From the IMG/VR virus record IMGVR_UViG_3300011337_000167: a stretch of DNA of 20,000 nt. One strand, 5' to 3'. The position numbers and the translations under genes are program-made. Shown here in pieces: positions 1 through 18,900 of this stretch. Source of the stretch: an uncultured virus (IMG/VR IMGVR_UViG_3300011337_000167) (taxonomy: Duplodnaviria > Heunggongvirae > Uroviricota > Caudoviricetes). Position 1 is the stretch's first letter. Each line of letters opens with the position of its first letter. Below the pieces are notes generated by a model. The model was not told where the DNA came from, searched no databases, and saw only the letters and a list, made by a program, of their open reading frames with translations.

Positions 1-144
1 TACCTACCTGTGCGTATCAGCCAAGAAGTAGCAGATTTTTTCAACGCTTACCCTAACAAGAGTGCAAAGATTAGGGAAGTATTAGCTAGTTATGTTCAAC
101 AACATGGAGAAACAAATGAGAAAGAAACTCACCAAAAGCAGTAA
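1..144 (+). CDS. 3' end of a small ribbon-helix-helix-like DNA-binding protein (partial, starts upstream of window)
   Basis: Frame 1 is open from base 1: YLPVRISQEVADFFNAYPNKSAKIREVLASYVQQHGETNEKETHQKQ* (TAA 142-144). The strand-helix-helix pattern (VRIS..EV.....NKS..IRE.L..Y) resembles CopG/Arc-type RHH. It overlaps the next gene start. Confidence 0.6.
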   Translation, partial: YLPVRISQEVADFFNAYPNKSAKIREVLASYVQQHGETNEKETHQKQ

Positions 145-731: not shown

Positions 732-735
732 CTCC

Positions 736-763: not shown

Positions 764-769
764 GGTGGC

Positions 770-1099
770 ATGGCACTAACTCCCGAAAAGAAAGTTAAAG
801 ACAAATGCGTCAAGCTACTTAAGGCTTACGACGCTTATTACTTTTTCCCTGCTACCCATGGTTATGGACGTAGCGGTGTGCCTGATATTATTTGTTGCAT
901 TGCAGGAAAATTTGTAGCTATTGAGTGCAAGGCAGGCGACAATAAGCCTACTGCATTACAAGAAAAAGAAATGGCAGACATTCGTAAACAGGGTGGAATT
1001 GCCGTCGTAATAAATGAAAGCAACCTAACATTGTTAGAGGGATTGCTAAAAGATTTAACAGGGGCTAACGACGAGGAGGACATAGATGGCAGATGTTGA
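770..1099 (+). CDS. VRR-NUC family nuclease / Holliday-junction-resolvase-like
   Basis: PEKKVK...GRSGVPDIICC..GKFVAIECKA...PTALQ...IRKQGG matches the PD-(D/E)XK VRR-NUC pattern. Confidence 0.88.
   Translation: MALTPEKKVKDKCVKLLKAYDAYYFFPATHGYGRSGVPDIICCIAGKFVAIECKAGDNKPTALQEKEMADIRKQGGIAVVINESNLTLLEGLLKDLTGANDEEDIDGRC
1025..1037. promoter_or_regulatory. Palindromic operator-like site CTAACA-T-TGTTAG
   Basis: Exact reverse complement of 574-586. It lies inside the VRR-NUC gene, about 50 nt upstream of ORF 1086. Confidence 0.45.
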
Positions 1100-3313: not shown

Positions 3314-4304
3314 TAGTCACATATACGGGGAAGATAGAAACAAACTATACCCAATTGCATCAATTGGGTTTACTAAAGACATTTATCCAAACGTTAAAAG
3401 TGCAATTCAAAATATTGAAATAAAAAACAAACTACTTAATGCGTTTACTGATTTTGTTAAGTTAGCACAACAAGGTAAGTGTTTTGATGTTCATTTTGAT
3501 GCCCATAAAGAAAAGTCAAAAGAACTTATTGACTGCATACTTGAGCACCCTAAAATAATAGTTGAACGTGACTTTCTTGGTAGTCGTAGCCCAATTTATG
3601 ACACAGCAGTTAGCGCAATTGAGTCGCTTGGAGAAATACGTCTTCCTTTTCCAAAAATAACAATAATAGGAGGAGAAAGAGTAAATAAAGATTTCCCTGA
3701 TGAAACAGACGAAATCATAGTGCAAGATGGCTCAGTCAATCTTTTGTATTCTTTTTTTCTAACGCAAGATCAAGATCGCATAACAATAAATGCTTTATTT
3801 AGTAAACCAAATGAAATAGGGAAGAATTATTTTATAGCCCATTGTGTACTACATTTTGTAGAGGGCAAACTTAAACTGTCTAAGCCGTTCGTTGCTCGTA
3901 AACATAAATACGAGCTTGCGGAACCTGAAACCATGGACAACATGTCCTACCTCGCAATTATTGCTGTATATATGTTAACCATAGCAGGTGGTGATATGTA
4001 TGTATCTGCCCCTACCCCCGATGAAATTGCCGTTAATAAAAAACGTATTAATAAAGGTAAGAAACCTTTGATTGAGTTTAGGTTAATTACAGTTGATGGT
4101 AAAAAGTCAGCTTTGCCATCTATACCACAGGGCACACATGCCTCACCAAGATTGCATTGGAGACGTGGTCATTGGCGCATTATGAAGAAGTCAGGCAAAA
4201 AAGTATGGATTGACCCGATGCTAGTGGGTGACGAAGAAAACGGCAAGATCATCAAAGACTATGCCGTAGGTAATTACGAGGAGAAAGAACGTGTACATCA
4301 TTAA
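3300..4304 (+). CDS. Hypothetical protein with C-terminal HASPRxHxRRGHWR motif
   Basis: 334-aa ORF with SD GGAG at 3290-3293. Visibly more AT-rich than its flanks, with a basic His/Arg/Trp-rich C-terminus. Confidence 0.8.
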   Translation: MAIANSHIYGEDRNKLYPIASIGFTKDIYPNVKSAIQNIEIKNKLLNAFTDFVKLAQQGKCFDVHFDAHKEKSKELIDCILEHPKIIVERDFLGSRSPIYDTAVSAIESLGEIRLPFPKITIIGGERVNKDFPDETDEIIVQDGSVNLLYSFFLTQDQDRITINALFSKPNEIGKNYFIAHCVLHFVEGKLKLSKPFVARKHKYELAEPETMDNMSYLAIIAVYMLTIAGGDMYVSAPTPDEIAVNKKRINKGKKPLIEFRLITVDGKKSALPSIPQGTHASPRLHWRRGHWRIMKKSGKKVWIDPMLVGDEENGKIIKDYAVGNYEEKERVHH

Positions 4305-5362: not shown

Positions 5363-5522
5363 TCGTGGAAAGAAATATTGCTCGAGCTGTACTAGTTATA
5401 AGCCTGATATTGGTGGTCAAGTGCTTGTTGTTGGTAGTCGGCATAGACCAATTCGACGATGGAAGTGTGCTCACTGCCTAGCAAAGATTTCACAAGCTAA
5501 ATACTCATCAAAGAAAAAATAA
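5310..5522 (+). CDS. Small zinc-ribbon-like protein
   Basis: CSSC...WKCAHC pairs; AAGGAG 5298-5303 precedes TTG 5310. Confidence 0.65.
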   Translation: MELQQLNLESDILEKVLDRGKKYCSSCTSYKPDIGGQVLVVGSRHRPIRRWKCAHCLAKISQAKYSSKKK

Positions 5523-5523
5523 T

Positions 5524-6195
5524 ATGCCAGCATGGTCATACAGTAGTTTAAAAACATTTCAACAATGCCCGAAGAAGTATTACCATCTTAAGGTAGCCAA
5601 GGATGTAAAGGATGATGGTAGTGAAGCTACTGTGTATGGCAAAGAGCTACATAAAGTTGCTGAGGACTACATCAAAGATGGCACACCCATCCCCCCACAG
5701 TTTGCGTTTATTCAAGATACAGTAGATGCGCTTAAGAGAATACCAGGTGAAAAGCATACTGAAATTGAACTAGGTGTATCTAATAAAGGTGGCAGACTTA
5801 ATCCTTGTGGGTTCTACGATAAAGATGCGTGGTATCGGGGTATTGCTGACTTGCTGATTGTTAATGGCGACGAAGGCTACCTAGTGGATTACAAGAGCAG
5901 TAAGAATGCAAAGTACGCTGACTTAAAACAGTTGGATTTACTAGCGGGTGCGGTATTTGCTCATTTCCCAGAACTTAAAACGCTTAAGTCTGCTTTGATA
6001 TTTGTAGTTAGTAATGAGTTTGTAAACAAAGAACACAGTTCAATGCACAAGATGGCTTACTTTGAGCATGTGCGATTTGATTTAGAACGGCTTGAAACAG
6101 CCCTAAAAACGGGTGTATGGAACGCAGTAGCGGGTCCGTTGTGTGGGTGGTGTCCCGTCAAGACTTGTCATAATTATAGGGAGAGACGCAAATGA
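5524..6195 (+). CDS. PD-(D/E)XK exonuclease, Cas4/RecB-like with probable Fe-S cluster
   Basis: WSYSSL..FQQCPKKY, G.ELH, RGIADL, LVDYKS and C-terminal CGWCPVKTC (1+3 Cys arrangement). Confidence 0.9.
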   Translation: MPAWSYSSLKTFQQCPKKYYHLKVAKDVKDDGSEATVYGKELHKVAEDYIKDGTPIPPQFAFIQDTVDALKRIPGEKHTEIELGVSNKGGRLNPCGFYDKDAWYRGIADLLIVNGDEGYLVDYKSSKNAKYADLKQLDLLAGAVFAHFPELKTLKSALIFVVSNEFVNKEHSSMHKMAYFEHVRFDLERLETALKTGVWNAVAGPLCGWCPVKTCHNYRERRK

Positions 6196-6605
6196 GCTTC
6201 AGTAAAGGAGTTACAAAAGAAAAAGGAAAACAAACCCCAAAAGACGCTTGGGATTACATTAGGGGCGAACATGAAATATGCCATTGCTCTTACCCTAGTT
6301 GTCGTAATAGAAAAATAACTAGAGACCAAGATGCTGTGTCTTGGGACATAGTGCATATAGCAAAAGATCAATTTGAATTTAACTTATCCCCATTAGCAAA
6401 ACTAGCAGTAGTTGCTAACCCAAAAATTACGGATAGGGGTGAAGAATGGGGAGATTATTTTGTTACTTTATCTATGCATGCGGAATGCGCTGCAGAATGG
6501 GGTATGCACTTGATTAAAGACGCCCTTGAGAGCCATAATGTAGGGACTAAACTTCGTAAGGAAAAACCTCAAAATGCCATACGTGAACAAACCAAGACCA
6601 TATAA
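6192..6605 (+). CDS. Hypothetical protein, possible Zn-binding
   Basis: ATGA overlap; CHCSYPSC and HAEC motifs. Confidence 0.7.
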   Translation: MSFSKGVTKEKGKQTPKDAWDYIRGEHEICHCSYPSCRNRKITRDQDAVSWDIVHIAKDQFEFNLSPLAKLAVVANPKITDRGEEWGDYFVTLSMHAECAAEWGMHLIKDALESHNVGTKLRKEKPQNAIREQTKTI

Positions 6606-6858
6606 AAAAGAATACGAACAGTATCAGGGTAAACCCGAACAAATAAAGAATAGGGCTAAACGTAACACAGCCCGTGCGGAGCTAATGAAAGAAGGAAAGG
6701 TACACAAGGGTGATGGAAAAGACGTCGATCATGCAAAACCTCTCAGCAAGGGGGGAACAAGTGCTAGGGGTAATCTCAAGGTTAAACCCGCTAGCAAGAA
6801 CAGATCATTCAGTAGGAACTCAGACCACTCCGTCAAACGGAATGCAAGCAAGAAATAG
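6574..6858 (+). CDS. Small basic HNH endonuclease-like protein
   Basis: KDVDHAKPLSKGGTSARGNLKVKPASKNRS is an HNH/HNN-type beta-beta-alpha-Me motif. Confidence 0.8.
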   Translation: MPYVNKPRPYKKEYEQYQGKPEQIKNRAKRNTARAELMKEGKVHKGDGKDVDHAKPLSKGGTSARGNLKVKPASKNRSFSRNSDHSVKRNASKK

Positions 6859-8236
6859 CATCCTAACGGATTACAACTGGCCTGGTAAACATAAGCCTTT
6901 TGCACACCAAAAGCAAACTTCTGAGTTCTTAACGCTTAACCGCAAGGCTTTCTGCTTTAACGAGCAGGGCACAGGTAAAACGGCTAGCGTAATATGGGCA
7001 GCTGACTACCTATTGAACCTAGGCGTTATCCGTCGTGTGCTTGTAATTTGCCCCTTATCTATTATGAGGTCGGCATGGCAACAGGACTTATTTAAGTTTG
7101 CGATTCACCGCACATGCGATATAGCCCATGGTAGCCCAGTACAACGCAAAAAAATACTTGCCAACAATGCTGAGTTTGTCATTATTAACTTTGATGGGGT
7201 AGACATCGTCAAAGAAGAAGTCCTAAAAGGTGGGTTTGACCTAATCGTAGTAGATGAGGCAAGTGCCTACAAAAATGCACAAACAACCCGTTGGAAGACG
7301 CTCAGAGACATAGCCGCCCAAGTTAAGGGTATGTGGATGCTTACTGGTACTCCAGCAGCACAATCCCCCGTAGACGCATTTGGCCTCGCTAAGCTTATTA
7401 ATCCTAATAACACCCCTAAATTTTATGGTCAGTTCCGTGACCAAGTTATGTTCAAGGTAGGTACTTATCGTTGGATACCAAAACCCCAAGCCCAATCCGT
7501 TGTACATAAAGTGTTACAACCTGCTATTCGGTTTGAGAAAGATCAATGCCTAGACCTACCTGATGTAACTTTTGTAGAACGGGATGCCCCGCTTACCCCC
7601 CAGCAAATAAAGTATTACAAAATACTCAAACAACAAATGTTGATACATGCAGATGGAGAGCAAGTTACTTCAGTAAACGCAGCTACCAACATCAACAAGC
7701 TACTGCAGATCTCTGGCGGTGCGGTATATACCGATACTAAAGAAGTCATACAGTTTGACGTATCCAACCGCTTACGGGTTATTGAAGAGGTTATTAACGA
7801 AGCTTCACATAAGGTCCTGGTGTTTGTTCCATTTACTCATACTATAGAACTACTAAGAACTTATTTAACCGCAGCTAATATTACTTGTGAAGTCATTAAT
7901 GGGCAAGTGCCTGTAAATAAAAGGCACGACATAATCAAAGACTTCCAAGAGACCGATAACACTAGGGTCTTGATAATACAACCCCAAGCAGCATCTCACG
8001 GGTTAACACTAACAGCTGCTAATGTAATCATTTGGTATGCTCCTGTGACTAGCGTGGAAACATACTTGCAAGCTAATGCACGTATTAACCGCCCGGGGCA
8101 GAAGAACCCCATGACCATTGTGCATATCAAAGGAAGTGAAGTAGAAGCAAAGCTATACAGAATGTTACAAAATAATATAGATAGCCACACAAAAATAATT
8201 GACTTATATAGACAAGAAATTGAAGATATAGCTTGA
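6842..8236 (+). CDS. SNF2-family (SF2) helicase
   Basis: PFAHQ (Q motif), EQGTGKT, VVDEAS, LTGTP, HGLTLT, QANARINRPGQ. The start is uncertain; ATG 6842 is chosen because 6710-6841 lies within the HNH gene. Confidence 0.93.
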   Translation: MQARNSILTDYNWPGKHKPFAHQKQTSEFLTLNRKAFCFNEQGTGKTASVIWAADYLLNLGVIRRVLVICPLSIMRSAWQQDLFKFAIHRTCDIAHGSPVQRKKILANNAEFVIINFDGVDIVKEEVLKGGFDLIVVDEASAYKNAQTTRWKTLRDIAAQVKGMWMLTGTPAAQSPVDAFGLAKLINPNNTPKFYGQFRDQVMFKVGTYRWIPKPQAQSVVHKVLQPAIRFEKDQCLDLPDVTFVERDAPLTPQQIKYYKILKQQMLIHADGEQVTSVNAATNINKLLQISGGAVYTDTKEVIQFDVSNRLRVIEEVINEASHKVLVFVPFTHTIELLRTYLTAANITCEVINGQVPVNKRHDIIKDFQETDNTRVLIIQPQAASHGLTLTAANVIIWYAPVTSVETYLQANARINRPGQKNPMTIVHIKGSEVEAKLYRMLQNNIDSHTKIIDLYRQEIEDIA

Positions 8237-8260
8237 CATTGTCAAAGTCATTGGTATACT
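8233..8260 (+). promoter_or_regulatory. Sigma70-type promoter with extended -10, -35 embedded in palindrome TTGACA-T-TGTCAA
   Basis: TTGACA 8233-8238, 16-nt spacer, TG 8252-8253, TATACT 8255-8260. Same geometry as the promoter at 736. Confidence 0.8.
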
Positions 8261-8288
8261 AGTGGTTCGTAGTTAGAAGGAGCTAAAA

Positions 8289-8696
8289 ATGAGTGATGTA
8301 GAAGTTATAGCAACAGACAAGCTTGCCGAGATTTATATAAAGATTAGAGACAAGCGAGCTGAGCTAAAGGAGAAGTTCGAGCAACAAGATGAAGAGCTCA
8401 AGGCTCAACAAGACTTGCTTGCAGAAAAAATGCTTGACGTATGTCGTGATAACAATGCTGACAGCATCAAGACACCAGCAGGGACAATTATTCGTAAAGT
8501 GGATACACGGTACTGGACGACTGATTGGGATTCTATGTATCAGTTCATACAAGAACATGATGCCTACCCCCTGCTCGAGAAAAGATTGCATCAAACCAAT
8601 CTTAAGCAGTTTCTCGAAGAGAATCCAAATCTGTTACCTGCTGGTTTACAAGCAGACAGTAAATACACCGTGGTCGTTAGAAGGAGCAAAGCATGA
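8289..8696 (+). CDS. Conserved phage replication-module protein with N-terminal coiled coil
   Basis: SD AAGGAG 8277-8282; coiled coil followed by SIKTPAGT..R...DWD..Y.FI. Confidence 0.85.
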   Translation: MSDVEVIATDKLAEIYIKIRDKRAELKEKFEQQDEELKAQQDLLAEKMLDVCRDNNADSIKTPAGTIIRKVDTRYWTTDWDSMYQFIQEHDAYPLLEKRLHQTNLKQFLEENPNLLPAGLQADSKYTVVVRRSKA

Positions 8697-9568
8697 GTAA
8701 TATTTCTATTTTTCAGCAACAAAACTCAGTAGCAACTAATCGTGAGGTTAGTGAATTATCTAAAGCCCTAGCGGATAGTGGGGGCGGTACTAGTCGTCGT
8801 ATCACCATGGCTAAGGGTGTATTTCGTAGGATCGTAAACGGCAAAGAAGCTGGTAAGGTTAAAGATGGTTTCCTAAATGTCATCATTATTAATGCACTAC
8901 CAAAAGTATCTCGTCAGTTCTACGCTACTGCGTTTGACCCTGATGCAGCCCCAACTCTACCTGACTGCTGGTCTAATTTAGGTGATGTACCTGATCCCAA
9001 AGCCGCTAACGCTCAGTCCACAAGTTGCGCTACCTGCCCACAAAACATTGATGGTTCTGGTACTAATGGCAAAGGTCGTGCATGCCGATTCAATCGTCGT
9101 ATTGCCTTGTTGCTTGAAAACGATATGAGTGGTGACATCTACCAATTTAATATTCCTGCCAAGTCTTTATTTGGTAAGGGTGTTGGTAATACGCATCCGT
9201 TTGAGAGTTACACTAAGTTTTTGCCAGCCAATGGCGAGAGCATTGATCGCATCATTACTCAGATTAGCTTTGATGAGAATGAGACCGCTGATGTGCTGAA
9301 GTTTACCCCCGTGCGTCATTTGACCGACGAAGAGATTGATGTAGTCGAAGCAGCTCAAGCTACTCAAGAGTCCAAGCGGGTTATTCAGTTGACTGTAGCT
9401 CAGCAAGACGGTGTTGTTAAGTTGCCACCAGCAGCTAAAGCAGTTCCTGAAGCCGAGGCTGAAGTAGTTGAAGAGCCTGTTGTTAAACGAGCTAAGAAAG
9501 CTGAAGTGCCTCCCGCTGCACCTAAAGCAAAGTTAGCAGATGTCGTTAACGCTTGGTCGGATAACTAA
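8693..9568 (+). CDS. Conserved phage protein, putative ssDNA-binding/annealing protein
   Basis: SD AAGGAG 8681-8686; beta-rich core with PDCWS, CATCPQN, ACRF; Ala/Pro/Glu/Lys-rich tail ending WSDN. Function inferred from position and tail only. Confidence 0.6.
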   Translation: MSNISIFQQQNSVATNREVSELSKALADSGGGTSRRITMAKGVFRRIVNGKEAGKVKDGFLNVIIINALPKVSRQFYATAFDPDAAPTLPDCWSNLGDVPDPKAANAQSTSCATCPQNIDGSGTNGKGRACRFNRRIALLLENDMSGDIYQFNIPAKSLFGKGVGNTHPFESYTKFLPANGESIDRIITQISFDENETADVLKFTPVRHLTDEEIDVVEAAQATQESKRVIQLTVAQQDGVVKLPPAAKAVPEAEAEVVEEPVVKRAKKAEVPPAAPKAKLADVVNAWSDN

Positions 9569-9570
9569 TA

Positions 9571-9807
9571 ATGAGCTACGGCTATAGTGCTAAAACTATA
9601 GAGCTTAACAAGAAAGCTGGTAATACTAGGCTTGGGGTTGCGCTGGGTAGAGCTGCAATAAAAAAGGGTGTATCGGTTGCTGATATAGCAGAGATGTTAA
9701 ATGTTAGTCGGCAGACGGTATACAACTGGTTTATTGGGGCATACGATCCTAAGCCGGAGCTATCTAAAAGTATCACCAAGCTTATAGCTAATAGACTTAG
9801 TAAGTAA
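9571..9807 (+). CDS. Cro/XRE-like HTH transcriptional regulator
   Basis: GVSVADIAEMLNVSRQTVYNWFIG is a canonical HTH_XRE pattern. Confidence 0.88.
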   Translation: MSYGYSAKTIELNKKAGNTRLGVALGRAAIKKGVSVADIAEMLNVSRQTVYNWFIGAYDPKPELSKSITKLIANRLSK

Positions 9808-9830
9808 TAAAAAGCATCACCGGAAGGTGA

Positions 9831-9854
9831 GGGGGGATTAGTCCCCCCTTTTTT
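9831..9854 (+). terminator. Intrinsic terminator / possible attenuator upstream of primase
   Basis: GGGGGGA-TTAG-TCCCCCC followed by TTTTTT, preceded by the hairpin TCACC-GGAA-GGTGA (9817-9830). Confidence 0.75.
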
Positions 9855-9875
9855 CCCCCTAACAACGAGACGAGA

Positions 9876-12716
9876 ATGGCAAATATAGACCTACTAAACA
9901 GAGTGCAAAGCCCCAATGGGTGGCTGACCGTGCTCGGCTTAAAAGGTAAATCTGCTATACAAGAGCTTGTTCAAACACGAGAAGAATTCGATAAGCACGT
10001 AGAAGACTTTCTGTCTAAGGGCAGAGATGTTTATTTTGGTGTCGCTAAGTTTGAGACCGACTTAAACCGCAAGAAAGAGAATGTAAAAGACCTCAAAGCA
10101 TTTTGGCTTGACTTGGATTGTGGTGAAGCAAAAGCAGAAGTAAATCCAAAAACAAACCGCCCCGATGGTTATATTGACCAAGTAGCAGGTCTTCAAGCTC
10201 TACAAGATTTCTGCAAATTAATCGGATTACCCAAGCCTTTACTTGTTAATTCAGGTAGGGGCATCCATGCGTACTGGCCTCTTACTAAACCTATTACTCG
10301 GGAAGAATGGGAACCAGTTGCTAATCGTTTGAACGAACTATGCGTATTGCATAACCTTTATGTCGATGCAAGTGTATTTGAGATAGCCCGAGTGCTTAGA
10401 GTGCCCGGAACATTAAACTTTAAAGATAATCCACCTAAACCAGTAGAAGTAATTTCAGATGCACCCGATGTAGATTACGAGGCATTTAAGAACCTTTTGG
10501 GTGTTAAAGAAGCACCAAAGAAACCTACTGCACCCAAAGAGTTAAGTGAGTTACAAAAAGCCATGGCTGCTAATACCGTATCTCGGTTTAGCAAAATTAT
10601 GATTCGCAGTGCAAATGGCGAAGGGTGCGCACAATTACTGTATCAGTATCAAAATCAAGAGTCTGTATCCGAACCTATGTGGTTCAATGCGTTATCCATT
10701 GCACACCGATGCGTGGACAGAGAGACTGCAATCCATAAGATTTCAGAGAATCACCCTGAATATTCACCCGAGAATACGGAGGAAAAAGCAAGCCATACAG
10801 CGTTTGCTCAGCGTTGCAGTACGTTTGAGAAAAATAACCCAGGTGGTTGTGAAGGTTGCCAATGGAAGGGACGCATCGGTTCTCCTATTGCATTAGGCAG
10901 AGAAATAGTTAAAGCAGAAGATACAGAAGTCCACGACACACAAGAGATAGAAGATGCGGTTACATACAAAATACCTTCTTTCCCGTTCCCATACTTCCGT
11001 GGGAAGAACGGTGGCATCTACATCACTATTAAAGATGAAGAGGAATCAGAACCAATTTGTGTATACGAACACGATTTGTATGTTGTAAAGCGTATGCACG
11101 ATCCAGACCCTGCGGTTGGAGAACTTGTATTACTACGTTTGCATTTACCTAAAGACGGTGTGCGGGAGTTTACGATTCCGCTTTCTACCGTAGCAGTAAA
11201 AGAAAGATTACGTGAAGCGTTGTCAACAAAAGGCGTCGCTGGGATGCCAAAGCAGATGGATCAGTTGATGGCGTTTTTAATGTTATTTATTAAAGAGTTG
11301 CAATATAAAGGAAGGGCAGAATTAATGAGGACACAATTTGGCTGGGTGGATAAGAACAGCAAGTTTATTATTGGCGATAGAGAGATTAGCAAAGACGGCA
11401 CATTCCACAGCCCACCTTCTGCAAACACAAGGCAGTTCACCGAAGTTATGCACCCCATGGGTACGCTAGAGAAATGGAAGGAAGTGTTTAATCTGTATGG
11501 CGCCCCTGGATTAGAACCCCATGCGTTTGCTGCGCTTACTGCGTTTGGCGCGCCGCTTCTTAAGTTTACTGGTCATAGCGGAGCAATCATAAACCTGATT
11601 CACAAAGAGTCAGGCACAGGTAAATCTACTGCTTTGTATATGTGTAATAGCGTGTACGGACACCCTGATAGGCTAGCTGGAATTTGGAAAGACACCCTAG
11701 CCGCCAAGATGTTGCATATAGGCATTATGAATAACCTGCCGTTTACGATTGATGAGATTACCAACATTAGCCCTGCCGAGTTTTCTACGCTGGCTTATAG
11801 CATGTCACAAGGTCGTGGTGCTAATAGGTCTAGGTCAGATAAAAACGAGATGCGTATTAACAACACCACTTGGCAGACCATATCGTTGGCTAGTTCAAAC
11901 GCTAGTTTCTACGAGAAGTTAGGGGTGCACAAGAACAGTCCGGATGGTGAGAGCATGCGCCTATTAGAGTATCAGATACATCCAAGCAATATTATCCCTG
12001 TACATGTGGCTAAGGAGATGTTCGACCACCAACTTAAAGAAAATTATGGGCATGCTGGGGACATCTATTGCAGTTACTTAGTTAATAACTTAGAAGATAC
12101 GGTCAGCAACTTGTTGGCTATCCAGCAGAAGATTGATAAAGAGATGCGCCTAACCAGCAAAGAGCGTTTTTGGTCTGCTGCTATTGCTTGTAATATTACA
12201 GGCGGTTTGGTTGCCCGTATGCTTGGGTTGCATGACTACGATATGAAGGCTATTTATGCTTGGTCTATGCAGATGCTTTCCACAGTACGGCAAGACATCG
12301 CACCTCCAGCTAATAACGCCGCAGCTATTATTGGTGACTACATTAACCGTAATATTCAAAATATGTTGGTTGTAAACAACGAAGTAGACAAGCGTACTAA
12401 TATGCACTCGGCACCCGTACAGGAGCCAAGAGGCGAGCTAAGGATACGCTACGAACCCGATACTAAGATGATGTACATCGTAGCCAAAGACTTTAAAAAG
12501 GATTGTGTGGAGTCACAAGCCCCATACAAAGAGACTCTTAACGAGCTAAAAGCTCGAGGTGTTTACACAAAAGCCGATACTAAGCAGATGTCCAAAGGCA
12601 TGCGTGTTACATCTCCGGGGGTGCATGCATTGTTTTTTGACTGCTCTGTGCCTGATTTTATTGACATGGATGCGGTCGTAGCGCCGATTATCGAAAATGT
12701 TAGTAGAGAAGATTAG
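9876..12716 (+). CDS. Primase-helicase fusion (AEP/RepB-like primase + Cys-rich linker domain + DUF927/P-loop helicase)
   Basis: AEP motifs FWLDLDCG, VNSGRGIHAYW, RVLRVPGT. Middle domain has Cys cluster ending CSTF...GGCEGC. QFGW (DUF927-like), Walker A ESGTGKST, Walker B TIDEIT, SQGRG..R. Confidence 0.9.
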   Translation: MANIDLLNRVQSPNGWLTVLGLKGKSAIQELVQTREEFDKHVEDFLSKGRDVYFGVAKFETDLNRKKENVKDLKAFWLDLDCGEAKAEVNPKTNRPDGYIDQVAGLQALQDFCKLIGLPKPLLVNSGRGIHAYWPLTKPITREEWEPVANRLNELCVLHNLYVDASVFEIARVLRVPGTLNFKDNPPKPVEVISDAPDVDYEAFKNLLGVKEAPKKPTAPKELSELQKAMAANTVSRFSKIMIRSANGEGCAQLLYQYQNQESVSEPMWFNALSIAHRCVDRETAIHKISENHPEYSPENTEEKASHTAFAQRCSTFEKNNPGGCEGCQWKGRIGSPIALGREIVKAEDTEVHDTQEIEDAVTYKIPSFPFPYFRGKNGGIYITIKDEEESEPICVYEHDLYVVKRMHDPDPAVGELVLLRLHLPKDGVREFTIPLSTVAVKERLREALSTKGVAGMPKQMDQLMAFLMLFIKELQYKGRAELMRTQFGWVDKNSKFIIGDREISKDGTFHSPPSANTRQFTEVMHPMGTLEKWKEVFNLYGAPGLEPHAFAALTAFGAPLLKFTGHSGAIINLIHKESGTGKSTALYMCNSVYGHPDRLAGIWKDTLAAKMLHIGIMNNLPFTIDEITNISPAEFSTLAYSMSQGRGANRSRSDKNEMRINNTTWQTISLASSNASFYEKLGVHKNSPDGESMRLLEYQIHPSNIIPVHVAKEMFDHQLKENYGHAGDIYCSYLVNNLEDTVSNLLAIQQKIDKEMRLTSKERFWSAAIACNITGGLVARMLGLHDYDMKAIYAWSMQMLSTVRQDIAPPANNAAAIIGDYINRNIQNMLVVNNEVDKRTNMHSAPVQEPRGELRIRYEPDTKMMYIVAKDFKKDCVESQAPYKETLNELKARGVYTKADTKQMSKGMRVTSPGVHALFFDCSVPDFIDMDAVVAPIIENVSRED

Positions 12717-12891
12717 TTATAACGTCAACTGGAAAAACTTTAAGACAGGGTATTCAATCTTCATACCTTGCCTTGATCCTGACGTTGCTAAGAAAGACAT
12801 TCTGCGTGTTACAAAAAGACTGAAGATGGAAGTTTTGTTTAAAGTAGTAATAGAAGAAGGTGTAAAAGGTTTACGCATCTGGAGAATTTAA
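12697..12891 (+). CDS. Small conserved hypothetical protein
   Basis: 64 aa, overlapping the primase stop; W..F..G.SIFIPC...GLRIWRI pattern. Confidence 0.75.
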   Translation: MLVEKISYNVNWKNFKTGYSIFIPCLDPDVAKKDILRVTKRLKMEVLFKVVIEEGVKGLRIWRI

Positions 12892-12898
12892 CTATACT
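12870..12898 (+). promoter_or_regulatory. Sigma70-type promoter with no downstream + strand gene
   Basis: TTTACG (12870-12875), 17-nt spacer, TATACT (12893-12898). Confidence 0.6.
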
Positions 12899-12903
12899 CG
12901 AGC

Positions 12904-12981
12904 ACAGAACAGCTCGTCTGTTTCTCCTCGGAAGTTAGCTCCTTCCACACTCTTTGCCCCCGCCTCGTGCGGGGGTTTTTT
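12904..12981 (+). ncRNA. Candidate trans-acting sRNA with multiple anti-RBS segments
   Basis: Bounded by a promoter and an intrinsic terminator. Three hairpins: AACAG-ctcgt-CTGTT, GGAAG-ttagctc-CTTCC, CCCCCGC-ctcgt-GCGGGGG. Perfect 9-11 nt complementarity to the start regions of ORFs 116, 4291 and 8289. Confidence 0.6.
12956..12981 (+). terminator. Rho-independent terminator
   Basis: GCCCCCGC-CTCGT-GCGGGGG then TTTTTT, between convergent gene blocks. Confidence 0.9.
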
Positions 12982-15900
12982 ATTTGTACTGCGGAGAACG
13001 AGTGCCTTCTACTAATGGGTAGACAAATGGAGCTTCTTTATCTGAGACAGATAACCCTTGATATGCTTTGCCACGACGCTCAGCACGAGACTGCAACGAC
13101 TTACTAACTGTTTCACCATTAATGGCTAGCATTGCATTCTTAGTATTAAATTTATCTATTTCTTCTAATATCTTGTCAATCTTGTCGTCATCATCCTGAC
13201 GCACTGCAATATCTAAACGATTTAATATATTTTGTTTTTCTCTGTTTATCTCTGTCACTATCTGTTTAGCCATAAAGTTAGCCTTTTGTACTTGCGCCAC
13301 TTCGGTGCTTCCAAAGCCTAAAGTTTGTGCAAGCAGTTTGCCTGTTGTGTAGAACTCTGGGTTCATCAACTCATCACCTTTAGTAGTAGTTGCGCCTTCG
13401 CTCTTTAGCCTCATTGAGGTTAAACCACCTCTAAGCCACGCTGGAGAAAGTTTTTCAAAAGCCCTACTAACCTGCCCATTATTCCAATCGTCGTAAGCAC
13501 CTGCAAAATTTGCACCCACGCTACCAATTGGACCAGTCCAACTAAACGCAAAGTTTATAAATGCTTGACGAGAAGTTTCTGCAGGAGCATCACTTCTAAA
13601 CCACAACCCATCTAAAGAAGTAGAAGTACCTACGTTTAAATCGGTATAAGCAGATATTGGACCCATTTCAACACCACGAGATAACGTAGCAGCTTGCTCT
13701 TCAGTTAAGTTAAAGAAGTTAGCTAGACTGCTATCGGGACCAAAGTAGCTAGGAATAAACGAATTTCTAAACCATAAGTCTAAGCTGCGTTTACCAAGGG
13801 GATTACCTTCGTCGTCTTCGTCGTAGTCTTCGTCTTCTTCATCTCGAAGTAGTTCACGCATACCTTCTGCCATACCCATAATAAAGCTATATAAAGGGAA
13901 ACCTGTAACACCAGCAAATAGACCAGTCATACCCAGTGTGCCAAAGAACTTAATAGCCGCTTCTTTCTTTTCTTCTTTATTCAATAATGGCAGCATGCCG
14001 TAGAAGTTACGTACTAAATACGATGTCATCTGTAGCGGGTAGGTCAAGAACTGGAATGCTAAGCGTCCAGCAGCACTCTTCATTGGGGGCGGTTTGTTGT
14101 ATTGAGTGTAGTTAAATAAAGCATCGTAGGTTAGCTTTAGGGCTCTTTTAGTAGCTGCATCAAACGCAGCCTTGTCGTCCATACCCTTTTGCTTTGCGTC
14201 TGCGTAAGCTAGTTCAAAACTGGACATGAACATAATTTCACGAGAAATACGCTCAGCGTGGTGGAATGCGCCACCCATTAAATTAAATGTAAACCTAGTC
14301 CCTCTTTCTACTAAACCTTGATAACGAGTACTGGGGGCTGCAGCCATTGCCGTCATATCCCCTGCATAGGTAGACATAAATATATCTTTGTCATTGGCAA
14401 AGTTCCAAGCGTCTTTTAGTACTTTTCTGTACGCTAAATTTTTGTGTTCGTTTACGTACTTAGAGTCATTAATAGATGGCTGACCCCACGAAGTTACTAC
14501 GTTTCCGTTCTCGTCTTTTTTAGTTGTGCCAAATTTATTCCATAAAGCACCATACCTAGCAGCAGTTGCAGTAGCTTTGCCAATACCAAACTCAGCCCCA
14601 AGGGTAGGTAAGCCAACAATCGGTAGCTGGGTCATCTGTACTAATGCAGATTTAGGAGAAGTCAGAAGCCAATAGAACACAAACTTATTACCAATGGAAG
14701 CAACTTGATCCCAATCAAGCCCTTCTTCAGGCACTGTGGGAGTAATTTCATTAATAGCTCGGTTACTAACTTCTCTAATAATAGTAGCTAGCTTTAGCTT
14801 ATCCGGATTTTGCTGTATCTCTGCATATGCAGCAGCTATGCCATTGCGAATCTTATCTGAGTACTTTAGTCGAGCTAGCTGATTAGCAGCGGTATGCTGG
14901 CTAACAATAAAGTTGCGGATTGCATCGGCACTAAAACCAGTCTTGCCTTGGCGGTGTACAAACTTACGACGGATGTCCTTATCTGGTAGAGTCATCAAGT
15001 ACATTTGATAGATATTGTCTTTAACAGCATCAATATCCGACATCTTGTTTTTATCTAACATTGCAAAGATTTCTTTAAGCATATCGCTAGATTCAATATG
15101 TTTTTCTCTTAGTTTGCGAATGTCATTTCCAATATCTATGTCGCCATCGGCAATCATCTGGTCTTTAGTACGCTTGTCCCCAGCTTTATTAAGTTCAGCA
15201 ACACGGGCTTCAATGGCGTTGTTACGAGCAACTTCCCCTTCAAACATATAGAACTCGCCACTCTTGCCCTTGCCTACGCTAAACCAGAAGTTACCATAAC
15301 GCATTAATGGGAAATAAACCTCAAGTTGTTTAGCTTCTTGGAAAGTTTTAGTAATAGCCGCAATTAATTTGCCTTTTGGAGTAGACGCATCGTTAATATC
15401 TCCAGGTACGTTAGAAGCCGCAATCTTTTCTTTTAGCAACTGCTCATGCGTGTCAAAGGTTTTTTTGTAGCTATCTTTAGCCATCTTATATATGGCATGC
15501 CCTTCGCCTTTTCCAAATTTACCTAACTGCTCCCAACCACCCATGGTGTATTTCTCACCAGTAACAGGGTTGTTATAAGCGCCGCCTTCATACACTAATT
15601 TAATTGCTGCAGTGCGCTCAGTTCTTTGTTTTTTAAGGTTAGGTAAAGTTTTAGGGTCCGTAGACGGATTAAGAATGTCATTTTCAATGCGCTGTAACTT
15701 AGGATCATTCTTTATAGCGGTTGCCGCATCGGGGTGTTTAGTAGGGTCTACCTCTAACAAAGTAGATGCGTTAATTAAATCCGCAAGTATATTGCCGCCT
15801 TCTTCGTATTTTTCATTAAAGTTAATCCAAGCAGGAGTTTTTTCAGCAAGCTCACGGATCATTTGCACCCGCATGCCAGCCATGTCGTCTACAGCGTTGT

Positions 15901-18900
15901 TAATGACTTTTAGGTTATTAATTTTGTCCCCAGCTATGCGGGTAATGTCTTCTGTTGTAAAAGCTTTTAACGCAAGCTTTAATTTGGTAACACTTATAGC
16001 ACCATAAATAGCCTTCATCAAACGAATAGCATCGCTGGCATTTCTAACCTGCATTATTAACTCGCCAATTGAACCGTTTAATGTGGAGTTTCTATTAGAT
16101 AATCGAATCTTTCTAAGCAAAGTTTCTACAAGTTTTAATTGCTTAGGTGGTTTAGGTGCTTTTGGCGGTGCAGGTTGTTTTGCTTTGGCTGCTACTGGTT
16201 CCCCAGGAACCGTTACTTCTGGCATTGGTGCAGCTAGCAGCTTATTTGTAACAATAATCAAATCTTGGAGAGCAGAAGTATGCTTCTCGTCCATACTAAA
16301 CAACTGACGTATGCTTTGTACAAATTTATTAAATAGCCTATCAACAAAATTAGGCGGAGCACCTGCAAGTACACCTGGAGAAAGAAGTAAAAATTCTTGC
16401 ATAGCAGGCAAAGACATGCCGTAAGCCACAAACTCTTTAACGTCAGTAAAAGCGTCATTAGGTATTTCTAGCATTTCTGGGGTGAGTAAACCTAAATTGC
16501 CAGTCTCCAAAGCTTGAGCAAAGAGAGCATCATAGTTATCTTTTGCCCGTATCATCAAAGCCATAAGCTCTGCCACTGGACGCAAAGAATTAGGAATAGG
16601 TTTCTTTGCTTCTCTTAATTCTAGATAGGCATTAATACGGGCAACGGTTGCAGCGTGTAAAGCTTCGTGTAACACAACAGTATTGTTAATACCGCCGCTA
16701 CGCATTACATAAATAGTATTTCTGTCAGGTACATATAAACCTGCTGCTCCCATCATTTTGTCTCGTAGGAATGCAGTAGGCATATCGTCTGCACTATCTA
16801 CTACAACAAACTTAACTCCGTTAAGGAAAGGGAGTAACCGTCTAGCTAGTATTTTTTCAAAGGGGTTGCCGTTATTAGCAATCCAACTTACTGCGCTTCG
16901 TGCGTTATTGTATTTTTCAAAGACAGTGTTATCCTGCCCATTAGTAGATTCTGACATTTGGGCACGGCTAGGTGCGCCTATTCTTTGCTTAGCCTCGTAT
17001 CTTAGTTTACCTAACTCACGTTCTTGCGGGTCAGCTTTCTCTAATGCTGCAGTTGCTCTAGTACCTGCGGTTTTTTTCTTTTGGTTGGGGTCAACGGATA
17101 AACCATATGCAACCGATAGAGCATCTATGCGTTCTTGCCTTAAACCATACAAAATATCCTGAGCTTCTTTCTCACTGGCAGAGCGTTCAAGAATAGCGGC
17201 TTCGTCAACTGTTTGAGCTAAAGTTTTTTCGGCTTTAGCAATTGCATTGATAGCATCCCGTCCAGAAGCTATTTGCTGTTTTTTAGTCGCAGCGGCAGCG
17301 GCTATTTGTTCTGGAGTTTTTGCAGCGGCTGGTCTGCCACGAGGTTTGCCTGTTTTGACTGGGGGTGCTGAAGGTGTTACTTCAGTTGTTGTAGTTGGTT
17401 GCCCAGTAAGTTCTGCAACCCTTTTGTCTCTTCTTGGTTGGCTTTCTTTAGTAAAAGCATCCCATTCATCATCTATTTTTTGCAGCAATTCTTTAGCTTT
17501 TCTGGTCTCTTCACTAGTTTGTGCTCTTTTAACTTTTAAGTCTGCAGCGTTTCTTCTTTTCTCTAGCTTTTTAAGTGTTTGTAAATCTTCTTCCGCAGTA
17601 GGCTCTACAGAAGTAGTGGTAGGTGCACCCATACCAGCCGCAACTTGTTTTTGCCGTAAGCTTTCTGTAGCGGCAGCGGTTGCTTGCTCGTCGGTTAAGT
17701 TGTATTTAACTTTTAAGTCTGCAGCTAGTGTATTGAGTTCAGTTCCTTCTCCGCCTCCAACAGCAGTAGTAGTTGTGCCAGCTGCTGCCAGGTCTCCTCC
17801 GGTAGTGTCAATAGCTCCCGTGTCGGTTTCGCTTGGTTTGCCAGGCACAGAAACGCCTGGTTGATCTGCTCCACCGATAGTTGATTCAGTTCCATCTAAT
17901 AGCCCTCCTTGCAAAATAGCATCGCCTGCAACGGCGTAGGCTTCTTGTTCAGTATATGGTTGATTTGTATCTGGATTAACTGAAGCCTTTAGCTTCTCAA
18001 CAGTCTCATTAAACTGCTGACCTAAATTGTCTAAAGCACCAGGGGCATTAAGCTTATCAAGGATTTTCTTTTGATCTTCAACGGCTTTAGCTTCTGCTTC
18101 TCTTTTAGCAATTGTAGATGGCAAGCGCTCATAAGCCTCACGTCCACCAAATGCTGCTGTCTCTAATAAACTAGTTGGACCTTCACCAACGGCTTCCATA
18201 AGGACTTGCCCAGGCTTTTTAATCTCTCCTTCGGTAGCAAGTTGAGCAGCTGCTTCACCACCAGCTCCGCTAATTACTTGTGCGGCGGGTTGGGCTACAC
18301 CGATATTGACCGCTTCTTTTGCTACTTGGTTCTTTATTACTGTCTTAGGCACAAGCAATTTACCAGCTAATCCAGCAGCAGCCGTATCTACAGCGCCAAT
18401 AATAGAAGCCCTTGTCATTGCATGCTCGTAAGCTTTAGCAAATAAAGTTGGATCATTTAACGCTTTATTAACAGCGGCAGGGTCTTTTACATTTACCCCT
18501 TGCTCTTGGAAGTATTCTGTAATACCCGAAGATAACTCACTAGCAAAGCTAGTACTACCCATAGCCATTGCACCAACTCTAGGATTACGGGTTACTGCGC
18601 CTAATACAAGTGCAGGTACTAGTTGTGGGACGCTCTCTAAGGACACGCTAGCCATGACACCCAAAGGATCAACTTGGAACGCATCAAATGCTTGCCGTGC
18701 CGTCTTTACATCAGACAAAGCTTCTATCGTAGGTCTTTTTCTATATTGAGCAGCTTCAGCCTGGGTCTCCATTAGCTTTTGTTGAGATTGAGCTTGAGCG
18801 CCCTGTAACTCTTTAAGTCTAGCTTCTGCCGCTTCTGGTGTTAGTGGTCTGCCAAGAGGGTCTGTAGCCTTACCTTCTCGGATTAAATTGATTTCGTTTT

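What the first reader, a model, noticed from the sequence alone, without database searches (positions are those of the whole stretch)
12870..12981. Candidate phage-encoded multi-target anti-RBS sRNA at the replication/virion junction
Seen: promoter TTTACG-17-TATACT and a strong terminator bracket about 80 nt with no ORF. The body tiles complements of the phage's own translation start regions. TTAGCTCCTTC (12935-12945) matches GAAGGAGCTAA at 8276-8286 (ORF 8289, 11/11) and GAAGGAGC at 8680-8687 (ORF 8693, 8/8). TTTCTCCTCG (12921-12930) matches CGAGGAGAAA at 4277-4286 (ORF 4291, 10/10). TGTTTCTCC (12919-12927) matches GGAGAAACA at 106-114 (ORF 116, 9/9). There are 7-nt matches at ORFs 1086, 4927 and 5310, and CTCGTCT matches AGACGAG before the primase. 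Pairing extends beyond the SD core into gene-specific spacer bases, and part of it lies in hairpin loops or linkers. Inference: one sRNA represses translation of many early/replication genes, for example at the switch to late expression or in a dormant/immune state. Caveat: any anti-SD sequence partly matches all SDs.
Basis: partly seen in the sequence, partly recalled or inferred. Interest (0 to 1): 0.88.

Follow-up and report, generated by a model that had tools for sequence, protein, structure and literature searches.

The report
Conserved phage small RNA against own start sites
A roughly 78-base non-coding RNA gene, conserved in a group of uncultured freshwater phages, carries short sequences complementary to the ribosome-binding sites of the phage's own early genes, so it probably switches those genes off by base pairing.

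Summary
Positions 12870-12982 contain a promoter-like site, about 78 nt with no credible ORF, and a strong terminator. All quoted complementarities are exact.

The element is a real, conserved, structured RNA. There is one copy at the same place in relatives down to about 55% primase identity. 16 of 19 base pairs show compensatory changes, and 0 of 500 shuffles reach that number.

Complementarity to phage start regions exceeds controls that keep the anti-SD core. It changes together with the targets in relatives:
- The SL2 loop tracks the ribosome-binding site of ORF 8289.
- The SL1 loop tracks the primase start region.
- In distant clades the seed matches a stereotyped early-gene ribosome-binding site in 5 to 12 genes and in no late gene at 9 nt or more.

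Repression, timing, expression and the host are untested. Some listed 7-nt matches are at chance level. The closest analogue is the c4 RNA of P1/P7. The element belongs to no Rfam family. I read it as a new variant of a known kind.

The parts
12870..12875 (+). -35-like hexamer TTTACG, inside the last codons (G-L-R) of the small ORF 12697-12891
   Evidence: In relatives the hexamer is TTTACG or TTGCGA at 17-18 nt from the -10 box. Its conservation cannot be separated from the conserved protein end GLRIWR.
12893..12898 (+). -10 hexamer TATACT, directly after the stop codon of the small ORF
   Evidence: TATACT occurs in 35 of 50 distinct relatives' sequences, and a TAnAnT variant in 44 of 50. The strong promoter at 8233-8260 has the same hexamer.
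12905..12982 (+). Predicted small RNA of about 78 nt. The start is inferred as about 7 nt after the -10 box, and the end as the U tract.
   Evidence: Covariance model R1 hits 12898-12981 at 92.1 bits. Fold. The start and end are inferred and were not observed.
12907..12923 (+). SL1: stem GAACAG (12907-12912) with CUGUUU (12918-12923), loop CUCGU (12913-12917)
   Evidence: MFE and pair probabilities. Relatives carry at least 12 different stem sequences at this place that keep pairing. All 7 SL1 pairs show changes on both sides.
12913..12919 (+). Seed 1: CUCGUCU (SL1 loop and start of the 3' arm), complementary to the primase start region
   Evidence: 7 of 7 with AGACGAG. Other clades differ but keep pairing: L035 10 nt, L037 8 nt, L039 7 nt, L048 7 nt.
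12919..12930 (+). Seed 2: UGUUUCUCCUCG, the largely unpaired linker holding the first CUCCU
   Evidence: It matches 4277-4286 (10 nt) and 106-114 (9 nt), and forms part of the ORF 1086 duplex.
12930..12946 (+). SL2: GGAAG (12930-12934), loop UUAGCUC (12935-12941), CUUCC (12942-12946)
   Evidence: RNAalifold. 99.5% of cells are paired and 4 of 5 pairs show compensatory changes, for example GUAAG/CUUAC and GAGAG/CUCUC. Positions 12925-12946 are at least 90% conserved in 32 distinct sequences.
12935..12945 (+). Seed 3: UUAGCUCCUUC (SL2 loop plus 3' arm)
   Evidence: 11 of 11 with 8276-8286. It is the top match of 9 nt or more at the ORF 8289 orthologue's ribosome-binding site in 43 of 53 distinct loci.
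12956..12982 (+). Intrinsic terminator: GCCCCCGC, loop CUCGU, GCGGGGGU, then a U tract
   Evidence: 99.4% of cells paired, 5 of 7 pairs covary.
1059..1098 (+). Strongest predicted target: the start region of ORF 1086 (SD CGAGGAGG, AUG at 1086). It lies in the end of the endonuclease ORF 770-1099.
   Evidence: Duplex with 12907-12944 is -44.0 kcal/mol, the best non-self site in the window on both strands. 0 of 1000 core-keeping shuffles reach it. Net energy about -24 kcal/mol after opening costs. It is also the top site in L082, L083 and G003.
8276..8286 (+). Conserved target: ribosome-binding site GAAGGAGCUAA of ORF 8289 (135 aa, weak likeness to Mu Gam, Sipho_Gp157 and Pam3 gp33). It is the first gene after the promoter at 8233-8260.
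9868..9874 (+). AGACGAG in the primase start region (ATG at 9876)
4277..4286 (+). CGAGGAGAAA before ORF 4291 (GTG start, 54 aa)
   Evidence: Net energy -8.6 kcal/mol. Not tested in relatives.
106..114 (+). GGAGAAACA before ORF 116 (DUF3310, nucleotide-kinase-like)
   Evidence: In G003 the orthologue's start region matches that phage's SL1 over 12 nt.
8680..8687 (+). GAAGGAGC before ORF 8693
   Evidence: Across relatives the cognate pairing is no better than non-cognate (7.47 against 7.52 nt, P = 0.73).

Best explanation
Positions 12905-12982 encode a trans-acting, base-pairing small RNA of a virulent-looking phage. It sits at the 3' end of the early/replication gene block.

The RNA has four parts. 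A 5' hairpin (SL1) has a loop that reads CUCGU(CU). A pyrimidine-rich linker follows (UUUCUCCUC). A second hairpin (SL2) presents UUAGCUC in its loop, followed by the CUUCC arm. Last comes an intrinsic terminator with a U tail.

The three exposed stretches act as seeds. They pair with the Shine-Dalgarno sequence and spacer of a set of the phage's own early genes:
- ORF 1086 gives an almost continuous 38-nt duplex over SD and AUG. ORF 1086 is translationally coupled to the DNA polymerase gene.
- The Gam-like ORF 8289 pairs with seed 3.
- The primase pairs with seed 1.
- Several GGAGAAA-type start sites pair with seed 2.

Pairing would keep 30S subunits off these sites and so lower translation as the RNA accumulates.

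Shown here: the element, its conservation, its structure, the complementarity and its co-variation with targets. Inferred: transcription from its own promoter, repression rather than activation, and the role as an early-gene shut-off.
For: Real RNA gene:
- The model finds one copy per locus at the same place. 48 of the 86 sources searched gave hits with E of 7e-7 or better there. There is one strong hit in each of 5 whole records.
- 86.4% of cells are paired against 74.5% in shuffles. 16 of 19 pairs have changes on both sides against 8.4 +/- 1.1. 0 of 500 shuffles reach this, and slid controls give 4-10 pairs.
- At least 12 different SL1 stems occur.
- 12925-12946 is at least 90% conserved across 32 distinct sequences, while flanking protein genes fall to 66% identity.
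- A -10 box is conserved in 44 of 50 sequences.

Targets beyond anti-SD chance:
- ORF 1086 gives -44 kcal/mol, reached by 0 of 1000 controls. It is the top site of the window and of G003, where the orthologue gives -41.3 kcal/mol, z = -3.8.
- Early-block start regions with matches of 10 nt or more, against controls: G002 2 (P = 0.004), G003 4 (P < 0.001), G005 4 (P < 0.001).
- G006 has 8 matches of 9 nt or more (P = 0.002).
- Late-block start regions with matches of 9 nt or more: 1 of 46 in G003, 0 of 40 in G005, 0 of 25 in G006.

Co-variation with targets:
- L054/L057: seed GCUAGCUCCUUA with target UAAGGAGCUAGC, 12 nt, changed at both ends relative to the window.
- L140, L154 and L141: seed UUGCUCC with target GGAGCAA, where the window has UAGCUCC with GGAGCUA.
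- Cognate against non-cognate pairing is 9.57 against 9.01 nt, reached by 0 of 10000 permutations.
- The SL1 loop and the primase start region change together in 5 clades. Cognate 5.79 against 5.32 nt, P = 0.0002.
Against: - There is no direct evidence of a discrete transcript. Only assembled metatranscriptome contigs from two studies cover the element. One includes upstream sequence and the other runs past the terminator, and DNA carry-over is possible.
- The promoter match is weak (9 of 12), such matches are not enriched in the window, and the -35 lies in conserved codons.
- By duplex energy the second-best start region in the window is no better than controls (P = 0.39).
- G004, a complete genome, shows no enrichment of exact matches; the longest is 8 nt.
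- In G002, the window's own phage, late genes also show 3 of 54 matches of 9 nt or more (P = 0.007). Early specificity is therefore not clean there.
- Cross-pairing energies between three clades show little cognate preference for the ORF 1086 and primase leaders. Only G004 with its ORF 8289 orthologue stands out.
- The permutation tests ignore relatedness. Independent compensatory events number only about 2-3 for seed 3.
- Gene starts in the relatives come from my own simple ORF caller.
- The host is unknown, so host targets could not be examined.
Confidence: 0.6

Rival explanations
1. The same RNA and the same pairing mechanism, but its role is exclusion or immunity. A resident or first-arriving phage would silence the early genes of related incoming phages, as c4 does for P1/P7 heteroimmunity.
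For: Seeds and target sites differ between clades in matched fashion, which is what a specificity determinant would look like. The review describes c4 as blocking the ant ribosome-binding site and underlying heteroimmunity (passages seen).
Against: No integrase or repressor family appeared among the 52 proteins I scanned, of 88 called in the complete relative G003. Cross-pairing energies between three clades are mostly similar, so discrimination would be weak. Close clades share identical seeds.
Confidence: 0.1
2. The RNA mainly targets host mRNAs as a host take-over tool. Its complementarity to phage sites is a by-product of anti-SD content.
For: It holds two CUCCU cores that could pair with any strong SD. 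Below the curated thresholds it resembles bacterial anti-SD small RNAs: mmgR/suhB at 35.2 bits, and ar14 and anti-hemB more weakly.
Against: The complementarity extends into gene-specific spacer bases beyond what core-keeping controls give, and it co-varies with the phage's own sites. The seed follows phage-specific ribosome-binding-site consensus sequences in clades of very different G+C content, 43% against 53-57%. The host is unknown, so this rival is not excluded.
Confidence: 0.12
3. It is only a structured 3' untranslated region and terminator of the early operon. It would give stability or termination efficiency and have no trans-acting role.
For: It lies directly after the last early ORF. 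One metatranscriptome contig includes upstream sequence. The promoter evidence is only at consensus level.
Against: A stabiliser would not need loop and linker sequences that are invariant over 21 nt. It would also not need those sequences to stay complementary to distant start regions through matched changes. The -10 box after the stop codon is conserved. Cultured distant relatives make do with a plain terminator or none.
Confidence: 0.08
4. It is a protein-binding or sponge RNA, for example titrating Hfq, ribosomal protein S1 or another pyrimidine-binding factor.
For: It is pyrimidine-rich and unpaired in places, and ends in a terminator with a U tail, features typical of RNAs that bind Hfq (recalled knowledge).
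Against: This does not explain the matched changes in phage start regions or the 38-nt duplex with ORF 1086. No tool here can test protein binding.
Confidence: 0.05

Closest known systems
c4 antisense RNA of phages P1 and P7
   Same: Both are phage-encoded RNAs that act in trans on a phage mRNA elsewhere in the genome. Complementary stretches are presented in loops and pair around the ribosome-binding site to block translation (review PMC12197685, passages seen).
   Different: c4 is described there as controlling one target (ant) in temperate phages for immunity. This RNA sits in a phage with no lysogeny genes found so far (52 of 88 called G003 proteins scanned). It has three seeds and complementarity to several early genes. 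No Rfam family, c4's included, matched at E of 10 or less. That Rfam holds a c4 family is recalled, not checked.
Bacterial anti-SD small RNAs (Rfam suhB/mmgR RF00519; ar14 RF02344; anti-hemB RF02837)
   Same: Short RNAs with small hairpins, exposed pyrimidine-rich CUCC motifs and an intrinsic terminator. The window's element aligns to the whole mmgR model (positions 1-77) at 35.2 bits.
   Different: All scores are below the curated thresholds: 35.2 against 41, 23-25 against 58.8, and 19.8 against 49.5. Relatives hit different families or none. The element is found in phage contigs only. A 17-nt core search of 185,579 species' genomes gave 17 hits, none of which resembles the RNA.
T4 RegA (translational repressor) and RegB (nuclease cutting GGAG in early SDs). 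Recalled knowledge, not looked up here.
   Same: The proposed outcome is the same: a phage-encoded factor that shuts off many of the phage's own early mRNAs at their ribosome-binding sites.
   Different: RegA and RegB are proteins. Here the proposed agent is an RNA, and specificity would come from base pairing. This is a functional analogy only.
Other phage-derived trans-acting small RNAs listed in the 2025 review (for example the VP882 small RNAs of Sprenger et al. 2024, seen only in the reference list)
   Same: Phage-encoded small RNAs that regulate by base pairing.
   Different: I read only passages of the review, not those papers. I saw no case described there of a multi-seed RNA matched to a phage's own early ribosome-binding-site consensus. 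The two text searches listed none by title or abstract start.

Membership tests
Rfam RF00519 suhB/mmgR | Score at or above the curated gathering threshold (41 bits) | tested here: not met
   35.2 bits in the window. There was no hit at gathering thresholds in the whole window. Relative L176 scores 25.9 bits, and L177-L179 give no hit.
Rfam RF02344 ar14 and related CCUCCUCCC-motif small RNAs | Gathering score of 58.8 bits, and the CCUCCUCCC motif (the motif is recalled) | tested here: not met
   23-25 bits, and only in distant relatives L178 and L179. The window's RNA has CUCCUC and GCUCCUUCC but no CCUCCUCCC.
c4-type phage antisense RNA (P1/P7) | Sequence and structure likeness to the c4 family | tested here: not met
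   No such match among all Rfam families at E of 10 or less over 12000-13800 or 12850-13020.
c4-type phage antisense RNA (P1/P7) | Loop-presented complementarity to a ribosome-binding site of a phage gene encoded elsewhere | tested here: met
   The SL2 loop and arm pair with 8276-8286, and the SL1 loop pairs with 9868-9874.
Trans-encoded base-pairing small RNA (general class) | Own promoter and intrinsic terminator bracketing a short non-coding stretch | tested here: inconclusive
   The terminator is clear. The -10 box is conserved in 44 of 50 sequences. The promoter is only 9 of 12 and was not shown to fire.
Trans-encoded base-pairing small RNA (general class) | Conserved secondary structure supported by compensatory changes | tested here: met
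   16 of 19 pairs have changes on both sides, and 0 of 500 shuffles reach this.
Trans-encoded base-pairing small RNA (general class) | Conserved accessible seed with target complementarity better than controls and co-varying with targets | tested here: met
   Caveat: the permutations are not corrected for relatedness.
Trans-encoded base-pairing small RNA (general class) | Detected as a discrete transcript | tested here: inconclusive
   Only Logan contigs of metatranscriptomes were available. X2 covers 12856-12983 and X9 covers 12881-12984 and then runs on. These cannot show RNA ends.
Trans-encoded base-pairing small RNA (general class) | Regulates the target, with or without dependence on Hfq | not testable with these tools
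   This needs reporter or toeprint assays.

The most novel reading that the evidence does not exclude
A family of virulent phages runs an RNA-based shut-off of its early genes. One roughly 78-nt RNA carries three seeds that co-evolve with the ribosome-binding sites of the early/replication regulon. In some clades the whole early block has adopted a stereotyped extended ribosome-binding site (AGGAGCAAAC or GAAGGAGCA) that matches the seed. The RNA would then do what T4 does with the proteins RegA and RegB, and the extended ribosome-binding site would be a regulon tag rather than a translation signal.
Probability: 0.35. Interest if true: 0.8.

Novelty: new variant of a known kind. Interest (0 to 1): 0.62.

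Why it matters
Few phage-encoded small RNAs are understood, and most known cases come from temperate phages or prophages (review PMC12197685, passages read). If this reading is right, it would be a conserved RNA regulator in a virulent-looking, uncultured phage group.

Its target set can be read from the genomes because seed and ribosome-binding sites change together. That makes two questions directly testable: how phages time early-gene shut-off without dedicated proteins, and whether unusually uniform ribosome-binding sites in phage gene blocks mark RNA regulons.

The natural seed and target variants (window, L054, L140, L154 types) form a ready-made set of compensatory pairs for reporter assays. 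The family could be added to RNA family libraries for phage annotation.

Tried and rejected
1. No near relatives in the phage collection (megablast). A distant blastn gave only terminator-like fragments. By primase protein the closest named phages are Pseudomonas phage Rollin (31%) and Rhizobium RHph_TM phages (24%). Neither has the element after the primase and small ORF.

2. No whole genome is held for the window. The nearest record, G001, is a 28.7-kb fragment that adds nothing upstream.

3. An exact search for the 17-nt SL2 core in bacterial and archaeal genomes gave 17 hits in unrelated taxa. None has the linker or terminator context, and my rough estimate of the chance count is about 70. 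This gave no host clue.

4. RNA runs: only small shares were held, and all are assembled contigs. They cover the element in two studies but cannot show ends or strand. Parts of the window without cover say nothing.

5. Duplex energies without accessibility give long, implausible duplexes for most start regions. They do not separate the remaining targets from controls.

6. The cross-clade energy test showed little cognate preference for the ORF 1086 and primase leaders.

7. The MAFFT alignment mis-registers SL1. I used a covariance model and a manual parse instead.

8. The protein atlas gave no function for ORF 1086 (best score 0.76). For ORF 8693 it gave only a lead to Pam3 gp34-like proteins, carried by 10% of one cluster.

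9. A small-peptide reading was rejected. There is no conserved frame, SL1 varies with compensatory changes, and only trivial frames of 20-46 aa touch the region.

10. Earlier notes of this scan: none for this genome or sequence.
Full report
**Setting.** The window is a piece of an uncultured phage.
- Plus-strand genes run from 1 to 12891. They include a DUF3310/nucleotide-kinase-like protein, an endonuclease, DNA polymerase (1490-3313), an exonuclease, a helicase, a Gam-like ORF 8289, an HTH protein, the primase (9876-12716) and a 64-aa ORF (12697-12891).
- These converge on a minus-strand 2105-aa virion-type protein at 12980-19297.
- The finding lies in the 88-nt gap between the two blocks.
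- No close relative exists among deposited phages, and no genome is held for the window.
- IMG/VR holds many relatives. 329 stretches encode a primase relative, and I kept 77 loci at 100% to 49% identity. A second set of 80 loci was found with the polymerase.
- Whole records of relatives show the same two-block plan, with early/replication genes on one strand and terminase, portal, head and tail genes on the other.

**Observation.**
- The promoter-like site is TTTACG, 17 nt, TATACT at 12870-12898, 9 of 12 matches.
- The strongest terminator of the window lies at 12956-12976 and is followed by a T run.
- No credible ORF lies between them.
- Each quoted complementarity is exact.
- The promoter match alone means little: 33 such sites occur in the window against 37 expected.
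- The region folds better than shuffles, z = -3.4.

**It is a real, conserved, structured RNA element.**
- Downstream of the small ORF, whose product ends ...GLRIWRI, relatives carry the same arrangement down to about 55% primase identity.
- The covariance model built from 32 distinct sequences was searched over 86 sources. It gave 48 hits with E of 7e-7 or better at that place and further weaker hits there in distant clades. No source has two strong hits.
- Each of five whole records has one strong hit.
- On the 46 distinct aligned sequences, 86.4% of cells pair against 74.5% in shuffles. 16 of 19 pairs have changes on both sides against 8.4 +/- 1.1. No shuffle of 500 reaches this, and slid controls give 4-10 pairs.
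- The alignment was fitted to the model, so these counts lean towards the structure.
- SL2 and the terminator are 99% paired. SL1 is mis-registered in the alignment (60% paired).
- A per-sequence parse shows at least 12 different SL1 stem sequences that all pair, for example AAGCAGA/UCUGCUU, GCAUGCAG/CUGCAUGU, GUAGGUCG/UGACCUAC and GCAAGC/GCUUGC.
- The SL2 stem covaries too: GGAAG/CUUCC, GUAAG/CUUAC and GAGAG/CUCUC.
- Window positions 12925-12946 (the linker end and SL2) are at least 90% conserved, although the neighbouring proteins have diverged to 66%.
- A TAnAnT box directly follows the stop codon in 44 of 50 distinct sequences, and it reads TATACT in 35. TATACT is also the -10 hexamer of the strong promoter at 8233.
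- The -35 lies in conserved codons, so its conservation is uninformative.
- With a start about 7 nt after the -10 box, the RNA runs 12905-12982 and folds into four parts:
  - SL1 at 12907-12923
  - an open linker
  - SL2 at 12930-12946
  - an open spacer followed by the terminator
- The CGAGC/GCUCG hairpin that the plain fold prefers would lie partly upstream of the start, and it is destroyed in the 88% clade.

**It belongs to no known family.**
- Nothing in the window reaches an Rfam gathering score.
- Below threshold the element aligns to the whole mmgR/suhB model at 35.2 bits against 41, and weakly to anti-hemB and a betaproteobacterial small RNA.
- Relatives hit mmgR at 25.9 bits, ar14 at 23-25 bits or NsiR1 at 27 bits, all far below threshold.
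- The likeness is one of general design: small hairpins, CUCC motifs and a terminator.
- The SL2 core is not found in an RNA-like context in 185,579 species' genomes.

**Targets in the window.**
- Exact matches to 21 start regions beat controls that keep both CUCCU cores:
  - longest match of 11 nt: P = 0.03
  - second longest of 10 nt: P = 0.0065
  - third longest of 9 nt: P = 0.004
RNA positions 12907-12944 pair with 1059-1098, covering the SD and AUG of ORF 1086, at -44.0 kcal/mol.
- This is the best non-self site of the whole window on both strands. The mean is -15.9 with sd 5.4, and the next site is -39.6 inside the large late gene.
- None of 1000 core-keeping shuffles reaches it against any start region; their best is -43.3.
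- After opening costs it stays at about -24 kcal/mol. For comparison, ORF 4291 gives -8.6, ORF 8289 -7.6, ORF 116 -5.7 and ORF 8693 -5.4.
- The second-best start region by raw duplex energy is not better than controls (P = 0.39).
- The ORF 1086 stop overlaps the polymerase start (ATGA), and the polymerase has no SD of its own. Pairing at ORF 1086 could therefore also lower polymerase synthesis. This is an inference.

**Targets in relatives.**

Seed 3 and ORF 8289:
- The orthologue's ribosome-binding site keeps AAGGAGCUAA.
- My script labelled it the top match of 9 nt or more to the local SL2 seed in 41 of 53 distinct loci. Two more, L054 and L055, were identified by eye, giving 43 of 53.
- The other ten loci have 8-nt matches, a diverged RNA, or lack the region.
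- Matched changes occur:
  - L054/L057 have seed GCUAGCUCCUUA with target UAAGGAGCUAGC, 12 nt, changed at both ends.
  - L140, L154 and L141 have UUGCUCC with GGAGCAA, where the window has UAGCUCC with GGAGCUA.
  - L060/L062 changed the arm and the target together but carry one internal mismatch.
- Cognate pairs average 9.57 nt against 9.01 for non-cognate pairs, reached by 0 of 10000 permutations.
- This test ignores relatedness. I count only about 2-3 independent events.

Seed 1 and the primase:
- The primase start region has GAGACGAG instead of GGAG, and the SL1 loop matches it.
- Both differ between clades yet keep pairing:
  - window: CUCGUCU with AGACGAG, 7 nt
  - L035: CGUCUCAUCU with AGAUGAGACG, 10 nt
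  - L037: 8 nt
  - L039: UUCUCGU with ACGAGAA, 7 nt
  - L048: UGUCUCG with CGAGACA, 7 nt
- Cognate pairs average 5.79 nt against 5.32, P = 0.0002. The other genes run through one search's own test show no such signal: ORF 8693, the HTH protein, the exonuclease, ORF 6192 and the helicase (P = 0.07-0.73). In that test ORF 8289 had only 5 usable pairs (P = 0.20); its fuller test is.

ORF 1086:
- Its leader is the top site of the locus in L082 (-41.4) and L083 (-40.9), and of the complete genome G003 (-41.3, z = -3.8).
- It is not the top site in L088 or L087.

**Whole genomes**.

| Record | Early block, matches against controls | Late block |
|---|---|---|
| G003 | 4 of 42 at 10 nt or more; controls max 2 | 0 of 46 at 10 nt or more |
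| G005 | 5 of 21 at 9 nt or more; P < 0.001 | 0 of 40 at 8 nt or more |
| G006 | 12 of 32 at 8 nt or more, 8 at 9 nt or more; P = 0.002-0.003 | 0 of 25 at 8 nt or more within the RNA body tested; one non-SD 8-nt match with the longer body |
| G002 plus the window's first genes | 2 of 24 at 10 nt or more; P = 0.004 | 3 of 54 at 9 nt or more; P = 0.007 |
| G004 | no exact-match enrichment | no exact-match enrichment |

- In G005 and G006 the early genes share a stereotyped extended ribosome-binding site, AGGAGCAAAC or GAAGGAGCA. In G006 14 of 20 GGAG sites are followed by C, against 2 of 9 in late genes. The local seed is its exact complement.
- In G004 the top start region by energy is the ORF 8289 orthologue at -38.4 kcal/mol, z = -4.1. 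The duplex includes pairing of the RNA's spacer with the leader.
- Cross-clade energies show little cognate preference for the ORF 1086 and primase leaders.

**Mechanism.**
- The best-supported reading is a trans-acting antisense RNA that occludes the ribosome-binding sites of a set of early/replication genes.
- Contact would start at the loops and the linker and extend into the SL2 arm.
- Repression rather than activation is inferred from the position of the pairing, which lies over the SD and AUG, and from the short unstructured leader of ORF 8289.
- The biological role is inferred. It could be early shut-off, or exclusion of related phages.

**Expression.** Only assembled contigs of metatranscriptomes were available.
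- In two studies a contig covers the element. X2 covers 12856-12983 and ends at the U tract. X9 covers 12881-12984 and then runs on unlike the window.
- This shows presence in RNA libraries, not a discrete transcript.

**Comparison and novelty.**
- The closest described system is the c4 RNA of P1/P7. It has loop-presented complementarity to a ribosome-binding site encoded elsewhere in the phage (review PMC12197685, passages read).
- The differences from c4 are the several seeds and targets, the virulent-looking genome, and the lack of any sequence or structure likeness.
- T4 RegA and RegB (recalled) are protein analogues of the proposed outcome.
- Two full-text searches listed no paper that describes, by title or abstract start, a phage small RNA matched to its own early ribosome-binding sites. 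I did not read those papers in full.
- I rate the element a new variant of a known kind.

**Confidence.** About 0.9 that this is a real conserved RNA element. About 0.6 that it works as a multi-target anti-RBS repressor of the phage's own early genes.

Noticed in passing
window 8233-8260: A near-consensus promoter, TTGACA-16-TATACT with an upstream TG. Its -35 sits in the palindrome TTGACAtTGTCAA, which is conserved in relatives. The operon it drives ends with an HTH protein (9571-9807), so autoregulation is possible.
   Followed up: no
window 1490-1493: The ORF 1086 stop and the DNA polymerase start overlap (ATGA), and the polymerase has no SD. This suggests translational coupling.
   Followed up: partly
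G005 (L194-L196) and G006 (L197-L199), early blocks: Early genes share a stereotyped extended ribosome-binding site, AGGAGCAAAC or GAAGGAGCA, that late genes lack. These clades have 53-57% G+C against 43-44% in the window's clade, so their hosts probably differ.
   Followed up: partly
window 12947-12982, minus strand: The late operon's last gene ends at 12980. On its strand the shared hairpin is not followed by a U tract. Late read-through would therefore make an RNA antisense to the small RNA, carrying RBS-like sequences.
   Followed up: no
window 13807-13844: Many short metatranscriptome contigs from several studies cover this stretch at depth 45-58 and then run on unlike the window. It looks like a short low-complexity stretch shared with other organisms, not phage expression.
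   Followed up: no
window about 17770-17830, minus strand: The second-best duplex with the small RNA in the whole window (-39.6 kcal/mol) lies inside the 2105-aa late gene, not at a start site.
   Followed up: no
L067, L072-L076, L111, L061: Some relatives lack SL2. L072-L076 and L111 keep a short CU-rich stretch plus a terminator. L067 has no element or terminator at all. In L072-L076 the ORF 8289 orthologue's ribosome-binding site has also lost the GCUAA extension.
   Followed up: partly
L201 (Pseudomonas phage Rollin) and L202 (Rhizobium phage RHph_TM3_14A): The closest cultured relatives by primase have the small ORF or ORFs after the primase but no such RNA. Rollin has no gap there, and the Rhizobium phage has only a plain terminator. 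In the Rhizobium phage record the primase orthologue is annotated 'putative integrase protein', which looks like a misnomer.
   Followed up: yes
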